From a virus (lineage: Duplodnaviria; Heunggongvirae; Uroviricota; Caudoviricetes): a DNA stretch of 64,000 bases. Position numbers: made by a program. Shown one piece after another: positions 1-6,000 of the stretch. The stretch is from IMG/VR virus record IMGVR_UViG_2718217859_000010; one strand, 5' to 3'. The number at the start of each line of letters is the position of its first letter. The stretch's first letter is position 1.

Positions 1-3000
1 GTCTTGTGCCTGTGCATAGCCTTATCACTCCATTGGTGTTATCTCTTCGTGAAAAGCCTCACAATGGCTTTTTGTTCTATCACGCCAGCATTACAGAGCG
101 TGCTGACGGTAAACGCTCTACGTGGCATACACAACGATTTACAAGAGCTAAACGAAAGGCTTTAGGGGAAAAGGGAACAGAAAGGAAAGTGTTTCATTCT
201 CTGAGACACGGAGTAGCACAGCTTCTTGATCGAAATCAAATTCCAGAGGACCGCATAGCTTTAATGTTGGGCCATCAGCGCGGCAATACAGAAACATTCC
301 GCACATATAGCAAGAATGCAGCTTCTCCAGTAGAGCTTAAAAAATATATTGAGCTTTTACGCTACCCTGAAATAGAGAAAGGCTTATCAATCAATAAAAA
401 ATCAAATTTAAGGCGTAAAACAACGCTATAGACGTAATAAAGAGGCTTCAATATAGACTGATGCCTCTTTTATGATTATCTCGTTACAGAGCGTTTCATA
501 GGCGTTTAAGGCTATTGTTTAAATACTGGCGTTACAACGTCTTGCCCTGGGCTTTTTTGATTTTTCTGTTCTGTTGTATTTACCTGCATTTTAACCTGTC
601 CCCCTACAGATTTATTTGGTGCTGTTTTTACCGCAATTGCGCTTGTAGTTGCTTTAGAGACAAGACGGATTTGCTCAAAATCAAGAGTAAACAATAGACT
701 TTCGCTTGCTTCTTCTTCATAAGACATGCCAACTAACACAACGTTGTCATAATTTTTTAACTCAGTGACAAGTAGGAAAGGTTGGCGACTGTCCATCAAC
801 TGATTTAGGTATTCAAGCATAAGCATACGTCGATTGCCGTTAATTCCCGCATTCTTAATCATATCGGGATTGAGCTTCAATACGGTTTCAGAGATACGCC
901 CCTGTAATGTGAACTTGTTATTCCGTATTTGAACATGATCACTAACTTCTGATCCTGATTCGACAGCATAGCTTGTAACGTCTGCATTTCTGCTAATTTT
1001 CGTCGATTCCACGCTATCAAATGATAATGCCTGGTAGTCATTGTAAGCAGCATTTGCACCACTGCCGAGGTTAGAGGCAATGATCGCAAAGCCGTTACCC
1101 CCTTTAGTTGTTCTACCGTTGCTATCGTTGCTTGTGCTGTTGATTTTCGCCTCAGTCGGGCGACCAATGGTTAACGGACCCATTGCCATAATTTGTAATC
1201 CTTATTTAAGGGGGCTAAACCGCCCCACAGTGATGATTAATAGGTTGACCCGCCTGACATAACACCCAGCGTTAATAGCTTGCTAAACTCAGCGGAGGAT
1301 GCCTTTGATTTGAAGTCGATAAATTCGCTCAATCGTCCGGTGTCTGATTCGATAGTTAGCGGCACTTCTGCATTTACTTGTAATTCTGGATTGAAGTTAA
1401 TAACAGGTGCAAAGGTGTAAGAAGGAGCCTTGAGAGCTTGTTGTGCTGCACTCTGTTTCAGATTTGCAATGTTTTGTCCTTCGAGACTGTATTGATTTAC
1501 AGCCTGCGCCCCACCTACCGTTTCTTCTGGCATAAACCAGCTTTTAATAGTGTTAACCAGGGAATTGCTGTTATCTGGCTTAGTTGTTCCGGTGCCAGCG
1601 CCTTTATATTGATCAGGAGTGAGATTAGAAAGATTCTGCTTCATTCCTTCGTTAGATAGTGGCGGTGCATCCCCTAAATTCTTTTGAATAGCTGCCGTCT
1701 TCTCGTCGTTTTTCATCAGCCAGTTGATTGCTTTCATTACAGCGTTAACCAATCCGCCGATAGCCTCGCCTAATTTGGTAAACATTGGCAGCATTGCAAC
1801 CATGCTCTTTTTAAACTCTTCAATCACTTTCGGATCAAGAGATTTCATAAAGCCATCAACAAAGGCGATCCCTTGTGAGTCAGAAAGCCCACTAAGTGCA
1901 TTATTCAGTTCACGGAATTTAATAACGCTTTCCTGTTGTGCCTGCGTTACCCAGCGCCCTGATTCTCGTTGTTCTCGTGCTGATTGTTCCACTTCTTTAG
2001 CGGAGCGTGTCCAGTATTTAGAGGTGAGCATCAAATCATCAGCCAGATCTTCCAGACGACTACCGATTTGTGCATCTGAATAGCCTTTAGCTACCATTCC
2101 CTGAACTGCTTTACTAACCAGACCAGCCGGATTATCAGCAAAGTCTTTTAGATCCTTTTTAGTTAGGAATCCTTCATTCATTAAAGTATTGATGCCGCTA
2201 TCGCCGCCCTTCCATTCTCCTTTACCAGTTTTCTTATCAACTACATATTCAGCCTCATCATAAGATTTAGTAGCCTTCTCCCGTACATCTTTCATCTGAT
2301 CGAGATACTTACGTTTACCTTGATCCCCCATCATTGAATCAACGCCGTTTTTATACGCCCATTGCTCAATATTGTTCATCTGGTTAACGTCTACACCGCC
2401 CAGCTTTGCACGGCTATATAATTCACCTTGTGTCTCAGCATTGGCAAAACTATTAGTAACGAATTCATTTGCCTTATTCATAGCCATAAAAGCAGCGCCA
2501 GCGCCTAAGCCACCCAGCATAACAGCCGCAGCACCGCCGCCAATACTCCCGCTACCCTTAACAGGTGCATAGGCTTTAGCGTAAGCGTTACGATTGCCAT
2601 TAATCTTACGTTGTTGCTGTTGTAGGCGTTTCATTTGGCTATTCATACGTGCCAGACTAATAGCGCCTCTTTCATATTGGAGGGCAATTTCTCTAGCCTG
2701 TGCAATAGCTTTATATTGTTCCGCTACAGAAAGACGGTGCATTGCACTAATGCTTGATCCAACGTCTAAAAGCTTTAATTCTGCCTTCTCTTTGCGTGCT
2801 GCCAGGGCTTTTTGTTCTCTTGCAACTACACGTTGAGCGGCTAATTGTGCTTTAGCATTAGCTTTATCAGCCTGTGCTTGCTTTTTAGCAATATCGTCTA
2901 CGTCTTTTTTTGCTTTAGCGGTTGATTGTTTATGTGTCTTAACACGCAATTCTATATCTTTCACAGCCGCCATTTGTTTACGAAGTTTTTCTACTTCTGC

Positions 3001-6000
3001 TTTTGCTTTCTCTAATGATGGTCGATCAACCTGGAAGGTGACAACGTTTGATAAGCGGCTGACGGTAAGGTCTAACATGCTAATTGTTTCCCTGTATTAT
3101 GATTGTTGTTTATTATTGTTTTTTAGAACAGTAGTATGTAATTGCTTCAAAAGTGCTGCACCCAGTCTGAAACACACGCTGCCGCACATTATTTGCATCA
3201 ATTGAAAGCATTCTGCATAAGGCACTGACATTGATTATTGAGTCATCGCTAATAGCTGCCAGTTCTTTTACAGATTTAAGAATTAATGCCTGTGAATTTT
3301 CTGTATTCATTGGTTTTCTCTCACATATATATATTTTTATTTGGGTTTGTAGACAGTAGAAAAACAAAAAGGGCAAGAGACAGCGCATATTTTGCTTATA
3401 TGATTATCCCTTACCCTTATTGCCCCGATTATTTCCAGACGTAGGGGAACGTCTTTAACACTTTTTACGCTACTGTGATCTGCACAGAGAAGCCAACACC
3501 GTGGTTAACCACAAGCGAGCTATTCTCGGTCACTACGTGCACTGCGTCGCCGCGATTCGATTCGAAAGCATAGCTGTAATACTCTTTAGCGCCTTGAGAC
3601 AGCAGATCGAAGGAACTGGAAGGCGCGCCATAGATAGCTTGGTAAACACCTCCACCCTTAGCGAATTTAGGCACGGCTACAGCGTCAGCGGTCATATGTG
3701 CCAGCAGCAGCGGATCAGTCACTTTGATCAGATCAATGTTAGTTCCTGGAATGGTGAAAGTAGTTACGCCAGGCAGCAGAGAACGCACATTAAACACCAC
3801 GTTTGCATCGTCTACAGGGCTTGCATATTGGAACGCATTGACCATGCCAACGCTGTAACGAATAGCGTTGAATGCCGCAGGTTTACAGAACACAACAACA
3901 CGCTCAATGGTTGCAGCCTGGCTTTGTGCCTTAGCAATCATATCCGTATGCATCTGATCAAATTGCTTGAATACGGTCATTGTGTTGGTGCTGGATGCGT
4001 CAACGGTTGCAGTCATTGGAGACACACCGAACAGAGTGCTGTAATCGATCAGAACATCGTCAGTTTTCGGGGTATGTGTCTTGCCAGAGAACAGAGAAGC
4101 CGCGAGGATGCTTTCTTTAGTGCGCTGGAATGCAACATTGTGTTTAGCGATATATTCCGCATACAGATCCGGCAGTGTTTCTTCAATAGAGCTTCCGGCT
4201 TTGCGTTTGCCTTGCACGTCCTGCGGTTTGATCAGGTCTTCACGCAGGAAGTAAGGGATTTCAATCAGCCATTCTTCCCCGTTCTCACGCTTAGTAACGT
4301 TATGCTCAGAGCTAAAACGGCTTGTAGGATGGTTGAACAGAGATTCATTGCTCTCGATAAGCTGGGAAACAGCCACTTTGTGACTTTCTACAGGCACAGG
4401 ATCAGTAAAATCCAGAGTAGACAGTAGGTAATTGAGTGAGTCGTTTAATTCGAACAGTGGAGCAAGATCAACCACTTCATTTCCGATAATCATTATTATT
4501 TATTCCTTCTTAAGATGTGAAAACAGAGTGGAAGCCTTCAAGCTGGAAGCCTTTAGCAGCGAGAGCTGCAATAGCAGCTTCTTTTACAGCGCCTTCGGCA
4601 TTCAGGGCATCAGCTTTGATGCAAACGAGTCCGGCATTAGCACGAAGCACGTTAACTGTTTTATTTGAATCAGCAGTTACGAAGTCAGACACAACGACAA
4701 GAACATCAGCGCCGCTAACATATTTAGCGCCGGATGAATCAATGAGGTCGCCGCACGTTACATCTTGTGCAAGTGCTGCAAATTTTTTGCTTTCTACAGC
4801 CGCGTAAGGGTCGGTTGCATAGCTCACTACGTCAGTGATGCTTTTACGATGTGGGAAAACATCGCTTAATTTTAAAATAGCCATTATTTTTCCTTAGATT
4901 GTTTGATTTGTTGAGCTTTAGCATTAATCAAATCTTGGTGAGATGGTTTATTGCTTTCAGCCTTATAAAGACGTTCACACTGTTTCTTTAATTCTGTGGG
5001 AGTGATGCCAAGCGCGTAGGCTGTAGCATTCAACACATCTTCAGTTAGTGTTAACTTTTCATTGCCATATTTCAGGATAATTTCTTGTTTCATTTATATA
5101 ACGATTCCATTATGTTGGAATTTAATAAATCCCCCAGGCTATAAGAGGTTCAATCTGACAATAGCGAGGGGGATTTATTAACGTGTCGGGCAATACACAG
5201 CGATAAGTAAAACCTTGAGGAGGTTTTAAACGTATCTCTAAGAATGCTTATTAAACATGCTTAAAGATAGGTTTAAAGGGTGAACAGATATTCCTGAAAA
5301 CATGCTCTTAGGAAAACATGCGGAATCAATCAGGAATATCTATTCGGGGCGCGGTGGCTAACCGCTATCTTTCATGGTGTGGATGCACCAGTCAGATTTT
5401 AAGGAATCACTGTTCCAATCTACTCACAGATTAAATTTTAATAGGGATTAACTACACCAACAGTAATCTACCGTTTCAGAAAAAGCTTTTTTACAACCAA
5501 AGATTATAGATTTGCAGTCTATAAAACCCGTTTTGCTATCAATATTTCCAAAGGTTATTGCACAATTCTTAGCTAAACTCTCTCTGCTTGCGGCTAACGC
5601 TATGCAGATGATTGTTTTTGACAACAACTTAATAGATTATTCTGTTACTAACTTCTGTCATTAAATAAGAGTTTAATGATGTTAGTAAATAGTTATAAAA
5701 TATAACTATCAGTGTAAGGCTCTTTAATGTTTTCGGACAAAATAAGGAGCTTTAGGATAAGCATAGATGAAAATAAGAGCGGGAAGGGCAAGGAGATAAC
5801 ACCTACCCGCTTTTATCAAAAATTAAGCACAATGCCTAACAACATTCATCAACACAACGTAGAAACAATCAACAATCAAAGAGGGAGTTATGATTATTCT
5901 AAAACTTCTTGAGGGGATGGAAGGTAATATTTGTTAGAGGTTAATGCCACTCAACCTTTGAGGCTATCACCTTCCATATGCAGGGATTTATGACAGTAGA

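What the first reader, a model, noticed from the sequence alone, without database searches (positions are those of the whole stretch)
1..5093. Orphan phage-structural-like operon convergent with a truncated tyrosine integrase
Six co-oriented genes (69, 124, 342, 91, 613 and 225 aa) look like a tail module: structural protein, small chaperone-like gene, tape-measure-like protein with coiled-coil and Gly-rich segment, and a distal protein. No portal, terminase or other head or tail genes lie nearby. The operon ends 80 bp from the stop of a convergent integrase gene. It could be a degraded prophage remnant, or part of a satellite or tailocin-like element that uses only a subset of structural genes.
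Basis: inference. Interest (0 to 1): 0.55.

Follow-up and report, generated by a model that had tools for sequence, protein, structure and literature searches.

The report
Satellite element's capsid and tail-core genes
The six genes are not an orphan tail operon. They are the capsid and tail-core module of an intact, mobile 12.7-kb island found in about one in ten E. coli genomes, which very probably parasitises large virulent phAPEC8/phi92-type phages, and those phages carry nucleases apparently built to destroy it.

Summary
The 342-aa protein is a lambda-E-type major capsid protein. The 613-aa protein is a tape measure protein (TMP). The 225-aa protein is a tail-tube initiator (Dit-like). 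The 124-aa protein is weakly decoration-like. The integrase is cut only by the window edge.

The genes belong to a ~12.7-kb integrative element bounded by 20-bp att repeats at tRNA-Thr (thrW). It has its own Rep protein and an iteron origin. A separate, complete lambdoid prophage lies in tandem at 11.76-62.56 kb.

The capsid protein, TMP and initiator each find their best phage relatives, in the same gene order, in Stephanstirmvirinae (phAPEC8, phi92), at 25%, 24% and 53% identity. All are under purifying selection (dN/dS 0.09-0.25). They are conserved across Escherichia, Citrobacter, Kluyvera, Buttiauxella and other genera.

Two phages of that subfamily, inny and muut, encode endonucleases. 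Their tandem DNA-binding domains are 88-99% identical to Rep alleles of this element family, as with ICP1 Odn against PLE.

Best reading: a satellite-like element not found in the literature searched. It would make its own capsid shell and, like PLE, substitute the tail core. No experiment supports this yet.

The parts
6..431 (+). 3' end (141 codons) of the element's tyrosine integrase. The gene runs off the window edge and is 425 aa in relatives.
   Evidence: Pfam Phage_integrase 6e-9. Identical complete gene WP_001269627 in L001 and L002.
512..1189 (-). Tail-tube initiator / Dit-like baseplate-core protein (225 aa).
   Evidence: Pfam Dit_like 1.6e-27. 53% identical to phAPEC8 gp103. phi92 gp135 in PDB 21vq, 2.5e-54, and 'tube initiator' chains 9cuy_K and Pam3 gp17. 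dN/dS 0.09-0.17.
1237..3078 (-). Tape measure protein (613 aa).
   Evidence: PHROG 16051, 3e-30. Collinear with phAPEC8 gp104 (662 aa) over residues 1-454, 24% identity, with a conserved N-terminus. phi92 gp134, 3e-19. dN/dS 0.17-0.25.
3113..3310 (-). Small conserved protein (65 aa; the ORF extends to 3388, giving 91 aa). It sits where phages place a tail assembly chaperone, but its only signal is a weak HTH.
   Evidence: Conserved in relatives. Profile hits only sigma region-4 HTH chains at E 0.06-1.2. No similarity to phAPEC8 gp105.
3465..4493 (-). Major capsid protein, lambda gpE / HK97-fold type (342 aa).
   Evidence: Pfam Phage_cap_E 3.1e-18, full length. PHROG 29. 25% identical over the full length to phAPEC8 gp114. 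phi92 gp124, 3.5e-18. dN/dS 0.11-0.20.
4510..4884 (-). 124-aa protein in the position of a head-decoration gene. The assignment is suggestive only.
   Evidence: Same position as phAPEC8 gp115. Profile hits decoration proteins 9ncf_J and 9c2d_J at E 0.5-0.9. The top four Foldseek hits are capsid decoration chains at E ~0.6, but the model has pLDDT 58. No BLASTP similarity to gp115. dN/dS 0.13-0.16.
4884..5093 (-). 69-aa protein of unknown function, first gene of the structural operon.
   Evidence: ORF. Weakly conserved at ~31% in other genera. No family hits.
5094..6085 (.). ~1-kb ORF-poor spacer upstream of the structural operon. Presumed control region.
   Evidence: No ORF of 62 aa or more. 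No Rfam hit. No similarity to phages. Inverted repeats at 5122-5181 and 5282-5345.
6086..7401 (-). Four small genes of unknown function: 102, 81, 126 and 89 aa. The 126-aa protein (6655-7035) is a core gene of the family.
   Evidence: p126 is present in nearly all loci and in 679 protein clusters of Enterobacteriaceae. Its model (pLDDT 69) has no fold match.
7411..8037 (-). Replication-initiator-like protein Rep (208 aa) with an N-terminal winged-HTH.
   Evidence: Matches to phage replication-initiation PHROGs (270, 428, 8102, 678), 5e-8 to 4e-5. Pfam HTH_36 4.5e-5, just below the curated cut-off. The Rep allele co-varies with the iteron sequence.
8089..8460 (-). Two small genes (55 and 60 aa) at the head of the rep operon. 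The 55-aa protein is 98% identical to phage inny gp185.
   Evidence: p60 is a core gene.
9232..9348 (.). Candidate replication origin: an AT-rich tract followed by 2.4 copies of a 22-bp iteron, TGACCTACCCCCTAGCTCACAG.
   Evidence: The same unit occurs 4.9 times in L016, which has a related Rep. L017, with a divergent Rep, has different 23-bp iterons. Copy number varies between loci.
9849..10406 (+). Serine recombinase of the DNA-invertase type (185 aa). Accessory gene.
   Evidence: Pfam Resolvase 9e-39, PHROG 125 4.5e-62. Found in roughly half of the loci sampled. No inverted segment among 8 loci compared.
10410..10492 (.). ~80-bp non-coding segment shared at ~81% identity with a gene-poor region of 65 Phapecoctavirus-like phage records. 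Function unknown.
   Evidence: No RNA-structure signal.
11714..11733 (+). Element-end att core, a copy of the tRNA-Thr 3' end. The 48-bp copy at 11713-11760 marks the junction with the tandem lambdoid prophage.
   Evidence: The second copy lies at 62556-62575 at the 3' end of the tRNA-Thr gene, 62557-62632. The other end of the element lies upstream of window position 1 (L001, L002).

Best explanation
The finding is the morphogenetic module of a ~12.7-kb integrative, self-replicating, satellite-like element of Enterobacterales.

Shown:
- The element is integrated at the 3' end of tRNA-Thr (thrW) between 20-bp att repeats.
- It carries an intact tyrosine integrase, a Rep protein with a cognate iteron origin, small regulators, and one structural operon. 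The operon encodes a 69-aa protein, a 124-aa decoration-like protein, the major capsid protein, a 65-aa protein, a tape measure protein and a tail-tube initiator.
- The capsid protein, TMP and initiator are diverged homologues, in the same order, of phAPEC8 gp114, gp104 and gp103 (phi92 gp124, gp134, gp135). These are virulent ~150-kb myophages of the Stephanstirmvirinae.
- The element lacks portal, protease, terminase, neck, sheath, tube and the rest of the baseplate.

Inferred mechanism:
1. On infection by such a phage the element excises and replicates from its own origin.
2. It expresses the structural operon. Its own capsid protein, with its own decoration protein, builds a capsid sized for 12.7 kb on the helper's portal. 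The helper's terminase fills it.
3. Its own TMP and tube initiator replace the helper's in the centre of an otherwise helper-built contractile tail. The TMP is 46-49 residues shorter than the helper's, which predicts a tail about 7 nm shorter. This is what Vibrio cholerae PLEs were recently shown to do with their own TMP, chaperone and hub protein.
4. The outcome would be transducing particles for the element and, probably, reduced phage yield.

Phages of the same subfamily carry endonucleases whose DNA-binding domains are near-identical to Rep alleles of this element family. This is read as a counter-attack on the element's origin.
For: 1. Identity of the parts. Pfam, PHROG and PDB-sequence matches support the capsid protein, TMP and tube initiator.

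2. One helper lineage. All three proteins have their best phage relatives in Phapecoctavirus/Justusliebigvirus. This is shown by tblastn against 50,697 phage records. The gene order is the same as in phAPEC8. Pairwise identities are 25%, 24% and 53%.

3. The element is functional, not decaying. dN/dS is 0.09-0.25. ORF lengths and order are conserved in Escherichia, Buttiauxella, Kluyvera, Scandinavium and Citrobacter. DNA of the structural module matches 576 of 5426 complete E. coli genomes.

4. The element is mobile and autonomous.
- The att repeats are intact.
- The same architecture sits at thrW and inside a LysR gene, srsR.
- A related backbone sits at the thiM riboswitch.
- Rep alleles co-vary with iterons.

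5. Physical contact and conflict with these phages.
- Phage inny gp185 is 98% identical to the element's 55-aa protein.
- Residues 1-129 of inny gp184 differ at only one position from the Rep N-terminus of a related element, L015; the identity ends shortly after a shared ALPLTDAHITPP motif.
- That inny segment matches 540 of 5426 E. coli genomes at mostly 90-99% nucleotide identity.
- inny gp184 and muut gp154 each have two Rep-type wHTH domains. Between them these match three different Rep alleles at 88-99%.
- Both proteins end in an endonuclease domain: PHROG 681 at 2e-18 to 4e-18, and Pfam MUG113 at or just above its curated cut-off (22.3 and 22.5 bits against 22.3).
- This copies the architecture of ICP1 Odn, which cuts PLE origins (PMC8263062).

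6. Precedent for the tail part. PLEs encode a TAC, TMP and hub protein that are 20%, 20% and 41% identical to the ICP1 counterparts. They build chimeric tails 10 nm shorter (PMC12987554).
Against: - No experimental or virome evidence shows that the element is excised, replicated, packaged or transferred. IMG/VR hits are mostly proviruses called in isolate genomes. Metagenomic contigs of 9-12 kb still carry chromosomal flanks.
- No packaging function or pac/cos site was identified. The only shared non-coding DNA is an 80-bp segment of unknown role.
- The element's capsid protein is only 25% identical to the helper's, so compatibility with the helper's portal and scaffold is not evident. One E. 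coli variant (L017) has a capsid allele with no phage relative at all.
- The tube initiator is missing in one clade (L009, L011, L018).
- The window's own Rep allele is only 35% identical to any phage nuclease domain. The arms-race evidence therefore comes from sister alleles, not from this copy.
- The decoration-like call for the 124-aa protein is below significance.
- Six other genes have no assignment.
Confidence: 0.62

Rival explanations
1. The element is an anti-phage defence island that never transfers in particles. Its diverged capsid protein, TMP and tube initiator act as dominant-negative subunits. They co-assemble with and poison the heads and tails of infecting Stephanstirmvirinae. 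The element spreads only by other routes.
For: - The proteins are homologues of assembly-critical phage parts, and the initiator is close enough (53%) to enter a helper baseplate.
- Tail-assembly interference is a known defence strategy: Tai systems (abstract of PMC11364771) and PLE11 Rta (PMC12987554).
- A related backbone carries a defence gene, GmrSD, instead of the structural module.
- The phage-encoded nucleases fit any harmful element, whether or not it transduces.
Against: - A capsid protein only 25% identical to the phage's, or with no phage relative at all (L017), is unlikely to co-polymerise with phage capsid protein.
- The module keeps a matched set in every genus: capsid protein with a decoration-like partner, TMP with an initiator. 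That fits building something better than spoiling something.
- The integrase, att sites, Rep/ori and multiple integration sites are what known transducing satellites carry.
Confidence: 0.15
2. It is a satellite or defective virus of a different, unsampled helper, for example a temperate myophage of Enterobacterales. The resemblance to Stephanstirmvirinae reflects only common ancestry of the structural genes.
For: - Capsid and TMP identities to Stephanstirmvirinae are low, at 24-25%.
- The L017 capsid allele matches no phage in the collection.
- Relatives occur in genera for which few such phages are deposited.
Against: - tblastn against 50,697 phage records gives Stephanstirmvirinae as the best-scoring matches for all three proteins. 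More distant matches are to other large myophages such as Pseudomonas and Campylobacter phages.
- Near-identical DNA, at 95-99%, is shared with inny and muut. Rep domains are captured in their nucleases. An 80-bp non-coding segment is shared with 65 Phapecoctavirus-like records. Together these show present-day contact with exactly this phage group.
- The neighbouring lambdoid prophage shows no similarity.
Confidence: 0.15
3. It is a decaying remnant of a once-complete prophage, as the first reader proposed first. A few structural genes survive by chance next to an old integrase.
For: Only a subset of virion genes is present. The thrW site is a known graveyard of cryptic prophages; CP4-6 of K-12 sits there.
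Against: - All genes are intact, under purifying selection and syntenic across genera.
- The att repeats are intact.
- The element has its own replicon.
- The homologous phages are virulent 150-kb phages, which do not leave prophages.
- CP4-6 is a different element.
Confidence: 0.03

Closest known systems
[quoted passage not shown]
   Same: - It is a small integrated island apparently tied to one lineage of large virulent myophages.
- It has its own Rep and origin as a swappable module.
- It encodes its own TMP and a baseplate-core protein with the same divergence pattern. PLE shows 20% and 41% identity to ICP1 (PMC12987554). Here the figures are 24% and 53%.
- Some members lack the hub or initiator gene, in both families (PMC12987554).
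- The helper lineage carries a chimeric nuclease that joins a Rep DNA-binding domain to a T5orf172/GIY-YIG-type domain: Odn in ICP1 (PMC8263062), gp184 and gp154 here.
   Different: - No protein was compared directly with a PLE protein here.
- Rep has an HTH_36-type wHTH, whereas PLE RepA is described as having a RepA_N domain.
- The integrase is a tyrosine recombinase.
- This element encodes its own major capsid protein and a decoration-like protein. PLE instead steals ICP1 coat protein and remodels it with the external scaffold TcaP (PMC10945586 abstract).
- No recognisable tail assembly chaperone was found.
- The phage nucleases carry two tandem Rep-derived domains, not one, at up to 99% identity rather than 42%.
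Capsid-forming PICIs (cf-PICIs) of Enterobacterales
   Same: They are ~10-15-kb integrated satellites that make their capsid shell from their own capsid protein rather than the helper's. Some cf-PICIs are reported to carry putative tmp genes (PMC12987554, Extended Data Fig. 10).
   Different: By their published description (from my own knowledge and the bioRxiv 2022.09.08.507074 abstract), cf-PICIs encode all proteins needed for capsid formation and packaging and take only tails from the helper. Those proteins are small terminase, portal, protease, capsid protein and head-tail connectors. Here no portal, protease, terminase or connector was detected in any ORF. A tube initiator is present. The apparent partner is a virulent myophage.
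P4-like satellites of P2-type phages
   Same: They are integrated at tRNA genes in E. coli with a tyrosine integrase, and have a ~12-kb genome that implies a small capsid. One sits in tandem with this element in strain 2013C-3264.
   Different: P4 uses the helper's capsid protein with Sid and Psu and has a primase-helicase replicon (from my own knowledge). No homologue of these was seen among the element's ORFs. P4 has no capsid protein or tail genes of its own.
Structural module of Stephanstirmvirinae phages (phAPEC8 gp115-gp103; phi92 gp124, gp134, gp135)
   Same: It is the source lineage of three of the six genes, and the relative order is the same: decoration, capsid protein, then TMP, then tube initiator.
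   Different: The phage's eight intervening genes are absent: neck, sheath, tube, chaperone and others (gp113-gp106). The proteins are strongly diverged. The genes sit in an integrative replicon.

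Membership tests
Phage satellite (general) | Integrated element with its own integrase and att sites, much smaller than a phage genome | tested here: met
   ~12.7 kb between 20-bp att repeats at tRNA-Thr. The integrase is intact, at 425 aa, in relatives.
Phage satellite (general) | Lacks the genes for a complete virion and so depends on a helper | tested here: met
   No portal, terminase, protease, neck, sheath, tube or wedge was detected in any ORF by Pfam or PHROGs.
Phage satellite (general) | Induced, packaged and transferred by a helper phage | not testable with these tools
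   This needs infection and transduction experiments. IMG/VR and metagenome contigs gave no particle evidence.
PLE-like chimeric-tail satellites | Satellite-encoded TMP homologous to, but diverged from, the helper's TMP | tested here: met
   TMP613 against phAPEC8 gp104: 24% identity, collinear over residues 1-454, 49 aa shorter. phi92 gp134, 3e-19.
PLE-like chimeric-tail satellites | Satellite-encoded baseplate-core protein (BhuB equivalent) | tested here: met
   The 225-aa protein is a tube initiator, 53% identical to phAPEC8 gp103 and matching phi92 gp135 at 2.5e-54. It is absent in one clade.
PLE-like chimeric-tail satellites | Satellite-encoded tail assembly chaperone | tested here: inconclusive
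   The 65-aa gene sits upstream of tmp. It shows no similarity to phAPEC8 gp105 and gives only weak HTH hits.
PLE (Vibrio) as a homologous family | Sequence homology to PLE proteins (RepA_N replication protein, TcaP and others) | not tested
   No PLE sequences were compared. Pfam shows HTH_36, not RepA_N, in Rep. I claim functional analogy only.
cf-PICI | Own full capsid and packaging set: small terminase, portal, protease, capsid protein, connectors | tested here: not met
   Only the capsid protein, plus a possible decoration protein, is present.
P4-like satellite | sid, psu, delta and alpha primase-helicase genes | tested here: not met
   None was detected among the element's ORFs. A true P4-like set lies next to the element in L001 as a separate unit.
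Tailocin / R-type bacteriocin | Sheath, tube and baseplate present; no capsid gene | tested here: not met
   There is no sheath, tube or wedge gene, and a capsid gene is present.
Cryptic (decaying) prophage | Pseudogenes, relaxed selection, loss of att or integrase | tested here: not met
   dN/dS is 0.09-0.25. ORFs are intact across genera. The att repeats are intact.
Odn-type origin-directed nuclease (phage inny gp184, muut gp154) | N-terminal domain derived from the satellite Rep DNA-binding domain, plus a T5orf172/GIY-YIG-type nuclease domain | tested here: met
   Residues 1-129 differ at one position from the L015 Rep. Two wHTH domains per protein match three Rep alleles at 88-99%. PHROG 681 endonuclease 2e-18 to 4e-18; MUG113 at or just above its curated cut-off; T5orf172 sub-threshold.
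Odn-type origin-directed nuclease (phage inny gp184, muut gp154) | Cleaves the satellite origin | not testable with these tools
   This needs a biochemical assay on iteron DNA.

The most novel reading that the evidence does not exclude
This is a widespread family of phage satellites in E. coli and other Enterobacterales, not found in the literature searched. It specialises on large virulent Stephanstirmvirinae. It combines two strategies so far seen in separate families: building the capsid shell from its own capsid protein, as cf-PICIs do, and replacing the tail core with its own TMP and tube initiator, as PLEs do. It is locked in an Odn-type arms race in which phages stack two captured Rep DNA-binding domains on one nuclease to hit several origin types.
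Probability: 0.5. Interest if true: 0.85.

Novelty: new variant of a known kind. Interest (0 to 1): 0.72.

Why it matters
If correct, E. coli has a PLE-like system, in a far more tractable host than V. cholerae. A common chromosomal island, present in about 10% of complete genomes, would exploit and probably restrict phAPEC8/phi92-type phages. Those phages are used in therapy and biocontrol collections, so the island could explain strain-specific failures of such phages.

It would show that substituting the tail core (TMP plus initiator) is a general satellite strategy outside Vibrio. It would show that this strategy can be combined with a satellite-encoded capsid protein and no portal or terminase, a gene set not covered by the four families that SatelliteFinder detects (P4-like, PICI, cf-PICI, PLE).

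The phage nucleases with tandem captured Rep domains give a directly testable second example of origin-directed anti-satellite nucleases. Rep and iteron swapping would be the expected escape route.

Tried and rejected
- **Invertible-segment switch.** The serine invertase at 9849-10406 suggested one. No inversion was seen among 8 homologous loci, and the inverted repeats nearby are low-complexity. The gene is accessory.
- **Neighbouring lambdoid prophage as source or helper.** Rejected: no similarity between the capsid proteins or between the TMPs.
- **K-12 CP4-6 as the same element.** Rejected: its genes and integrase orientation differ.
- **Structured RNA.** No Rfam hit anywhere in the element. 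The 80-bp phage-shared segment has folding z-scores of -0.1 to +1.2.
- **The 1-kb spacer (5094-6085).** No match to phages.
- **Fold of the 124-aa protein.** The model has pLDDT 58. The Foldseek and profile hits to decoration proteins are consistent with each other but not significant.
- **Fold of the 126-aa core protein.** pLDDT 69, with no informative match.
- **Similarity of the two small genes to phage genes.** None between the 124-aa protein and phAPEC8 gp115, nor between the 65/91-aa protein and gp105.
- **Circular or particle-derived contigs.** The metagenome contigs retain chromosomal flanks, and IMG/VR entries are mostly proviruses from isolate genomes.
- **WPEC4 genome ends.** The 328-bp identity between the two ends of the record may be an assembly overlap. 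The position of the 80-bp segment near record ends is therefore not evidence for a pac site.
- **Literature.** Eight searches, including one by protein accession numbers, found no description of this element.

Full report
**What is in the sequence**

The six ORFs exist as described. They lie on the minus strand, 5093->512, and encode 69, 124, 342, 91/65, 613 and 225 aa. They are closely packed and converge on a tyrosine-integrase ORF that runs off the left edge of the window.

- The 342-aa protein is a lambda-gpE-type major capsid protein (Pfam Phage_cap_E 3e-18 over the full length; PHROG 29).
- The 613-aa protein is a tape measure protein, or TMP (PHROG 16051, 3e-30).
- The 225-aa protein carries a Dit_like domain (1.6e-27).
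- Against solved structures, the 225-aa protein matches phi92 gp135 (2.5e-54) and chains deposited as 'tube initiator' (9cuy_K, Pam3 gp17). The TMP matches phi92 gp134. The capsid profile matches phi92 gp124.

**The unit the genes belong to**

The window is E. coli chromosome at the thrW tRNA-Thr locus.
- In strains cM8a and 2013C-3264 the same genes, at 98-100% identity, form a compact island between the tRNA-Thr 3' end and a complete 425-aa integrase.
- A 20-bp repeat of the tRNA end, ATGGTGCCGATAATAGGAGT, lies at both borders.
- In the window that repeat occurs at 11714-11733 and at the tRNA, 62556-62575.
- Between those two copies lies a complete lambdoid prophage with its own integrase, terminase, portal, capsid protein, TMP, J and fibre. 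It is integrated in tandem.

So the integrase is 'truncated' only by the window edge. 'No head or tail genes nearby' is untrue. The neighbour is unrelated, since its capsid protein and TMP show no similarity to the element's.

The element spans about 12.7 kb: window <1 to 11733. From left to right it contains:
- the integrase and the structural operon;
- a 1-kb ORF-poor spacer;
- four small genes;
- a Rep-like winged-HTH protein preceded by 55- and 60-aa genes;
- an AT-rich tract followed by 22-bp iterons at 9232-9348;
- an accessory serine invertase;
- a 50-aa ORF.

The Rep and origin assignment rests on co-variation. L016 has a Rep N-terminus 89% identical to the window's and the same iteron unit, in 4.9 copies. 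L017 has a Rep only 51% identical and different 23-bp iterons at the same place.

**It is maintained, not decaying**

- DNA of the structural module matches 576 of 5426 complete E. coli genomes, as several mosaic allele combinations.
- Homologues of the capsid protein form about 50 protein clusters. Wherever a source names the organism, it belongs to the Enterobacterales.
- Thirty-five loci were compared, from Escherichia, Buttiauxella, Kluyvera, Scandinavium, Citrobacter and metagenomes. They keep the same order and ORF lengths. The core is the integrase, TMP, capsid protein, the 124-aa protein, the 126-aa protein and the 60-aa protein.
- The tube initiator is present in most loci but absent in one clade. 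The invertase is found in roughly half of the loci.
- dN/dS is 0.09-0.25 for the capsid protein, TMP, initiator, and the 124- and 65-aa genes at unsaturated distances.
- Members sit at thrW and inside a LysR gene, srsR. A related backbone lacking the structural operon but carrying GmrSD sits at the thiM TPP riboswitch.

**Link to one phage lineage**

tblastn of the capsid protein, TMP and initiator against 50,697 phage records gives the same best-scoring group each time. That group is the ~150-kb virulent myophages of the Stephanstirmvirinae: Phapecoctavirus and Justusliebigvirus, including phAPEC8, ESCO13, inny and others.

In phAPEC8 the order is gp115 decoration, gp114 capsid protein, eight neck/sheath/tube/chaperone genes, gp105, gp104 TMP, gp103. 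The element has the two ends of that array without the middle. Pairwise results are:
- capsid protein: 25% identity over the full length;
- TMP: 24%, collinear from a conserved N-terminus over residues 1-454, and 49 residues shorter overall;
- initiator: 53%.

Present-day contact is shown by near-identical DNA. The element's 55-aa gene is 98% identical at protein level to inny gp185. An ~80-bp non-coding piece just after the invertase gene (10410-10492) is ~81% identical to a gene-poor region in 65 Phapecoctavirus-like records. I could not assign a role to that piece.

**Signature of conflict**

The gene next to inny gp185, gp184 (367 aa), has three parts: two Rep-type wHTH domains and a C-terminal endonuclease domain. 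The endonuclease assignment rests on PHROG 681 at 4e-18, Pfam MUG113 at its cut-off, and T5orf172 below threshold. muut gp154 has the same build.

The DNA-binding domains match Rep alleles of this element family:
- Residues 1-129 of inny gp184 differ at a single position from the Rep N-terminus of the related element in L015. The identity ends shortly after a shared ALPLTDAHITPP motif.
- That inny segment matches 540 of 5426 E. coli genomes at mostly 90-99% nucleotide identity.
- The first inny domain matches the Rep alleles of L004, L005, L015 and L026 at 88-90%.
- The second inny/muut domain matches those of L021 and L027 at 90-93%.
- The first muut domain matches that of L006 at 99%.
- L004, L005, L006, L021, L026 and L027 carry the capsid gene (L006 only up to its contig end). 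L021, L026 and L027 also show the TMP and initiator, while the contigs of L004, L005 and L006 end within or before the tail genes.

This is the architecture of ICP1 Odn. Its N-terminus is 42% identical to PLE RepA_N, it is fused to a T5orf172 domain, and it cuts PLE origins (PMC8263062). The window's own Rep allele is only 35% and 27% identical to these domains and has no closer phage match. This particular copy would therefore not be a target of the known nucleases.

**Mechanism**

Shown: the gene identities, the synteny, the selection, the replicon, the att sites, and the DNA exchange with the phage lineage.

Inferred: the element is a satellite of these phages. Lacking portal, terminase, protease, neck, sheath and tube, it must borrow them.
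- Its own capsid protein, probably with a matched decoration protein, would give a shell sized for 12.7 kb. The 124-aa protein occupies the decoration position. It gave concordant but non-significant hits to decoration proteins of Sf14 and Bas63 by both profile and fold, and to Sf11 by fold.
- Its own TMP and tube initiator would replace the innermost parts of the helper's tail.

The second step now has a direct experimental precedent. PLEs encode a TAC, TMP and hub protein that are 20%, 20% and 41% identical to the ICP1 counterparts. They assemble chimeric tails 10 nm shorter that exclude the ICP1 TMP. Not all PLEs carry the hub gene (PMC12987554). Applying the usual ~0.15 nm per TMP residue (my own knowledge), a TMP 46-49 residues shorter predicts a tail about 7 nm shorter here.

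The 65-aa gene upstream of tmp is in the chaperone position. It shows only a weak HTH signal, so I leave it unassigned.

**Comparison with known systems**

The element works most like PLE: a virulent myophage partner, a modular replicon, tail-core substitution, and an Odn-type counter-weapon. I do not claim homology to PLE.

It shares with cf-PICIs the use of its own capsid protein. It fails the cf-PICI definition because it has no portal, protease, terminase or connectors. It is not P4-like, not a tailocin and not a cryptic prophage; the membership table gives the tests.

Eight literature searches, including one by protein accession, found no description of this family. That library is incomplete, so prior description cannot be excluded.

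**Verdict**

The most likely reading (about 0.6) is a new variant of phage satellite in Enterobacterales tied to Stephanstirmvirinae. The main rivals are:
- a non-transducing defence island that poisons phage assembly (0.15);
- a satellite of an unsampled helper (0.15);
- a decaying prophage remnant (0.03).

Everything beyond anatomy, selection and sequence sharing is inference and needs the infection, particle and nuclease experiments listed under next steps.

Noticed in passing
window 11760-62556: A complete lambdoid prophage is integrated in tandem at thrW. It has an integrase (61379-62542), TerL (40029-42014), portal, protease/scaffold, a gpE-type capsid protein (35285-36313), TMP (29359-31938), J and a fibre. 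A 48-bp copy of the tRNA end (11713-11760) marks its distal junction.
   Followed up: partly
window 12233-14848: An IS66-family insertion, annotated ISCro1-like in relatives, forms a GC-rich block (51-59% GC) near the fibre end of the lambdoid prophage. It contains three ORFs of 225, 115 and 523 aa.
   Followed up: no
window 10410-10492; L042:1129-1209; L043:273-357: An ~80-bp non-coding segment after the invertase gene is ~81% identical to a gene-poor region in 65 Phapecoctavirus-like phage records. Several records start or end within 0.3-1.1 kb of it. There is no RNA-structure signal. It could be a shared cis-acting site (pac, promoter or recombination site), but this is unresolved.
   Followed up: partly
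L013:2289-3612 (phage inny gp184, gp185); L014:1512-2729 (phage muut): The phage endonucleases each carry two tandem Rep-type wHTH domains, 88-99% identical to three different Rep alleles of the element family. They sit next to a copy of the element's 55-aa gene. This looks like a multi-specific, Odn-like anti-satellite nuclease.
   Followed up: yes
L015:7993-16912 (E. coli strain 135): A related backbone has the p60/p55/Rep genes, an origin region and the invertase, with a different integrase. It is inserted at the thiM TPP riboswitch, which is duplicated at both ends. It carries GmrSD and no structural operon.
   Followed up: partly
L017:11955-13586 (E. coli CUVET19-1704): The backbone is otherwise near-identical, with TMP and initiator 97-98% identical. 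But the capsid, 124-aa and 69-aa block is replaced by alleles with about 20% (capsid), 26% and 31% identity. This capsid allele has no tblastn match in 50,697 phage records.
   Followed up: partly
L001:570-10828 (E. coli 2013C-3264): A P4-like satellite lies in tandem with the element at thrW. It has a primase-helicase, Icd-like, ogr/delta and psu genes and a frameshifted integrase. So two different satellite types can stack at this site.
   Followed up: no
window 5094-6085: A ~1-kb spacer with no ORF of 62 aa or more lies upstream of the structural operon. It contains two strong inverted repeats (5122-5181 and 5282-5345). It has no Rfam or phage match. It could hold the late promoter or operator, or an unannotated RNA.
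   Followed up: partly
window 9849-10406: A Hin/Gin-type serine invertase has no detectable invertible segment among the 8 loci compared. It is found in roughly half of the elements sampled, and where full-length copies occur it is linked to the 80-bp phage-shared segment.
   Followed up: partly
L002:20310-21007 and 27839-28536: Strain cM8a, the closest match to the window (99.9%), has two IS1 insertions inside the element. One lies between the TMP and initiator genes. The window copy lacks both and looks intact.
   Followed up: no
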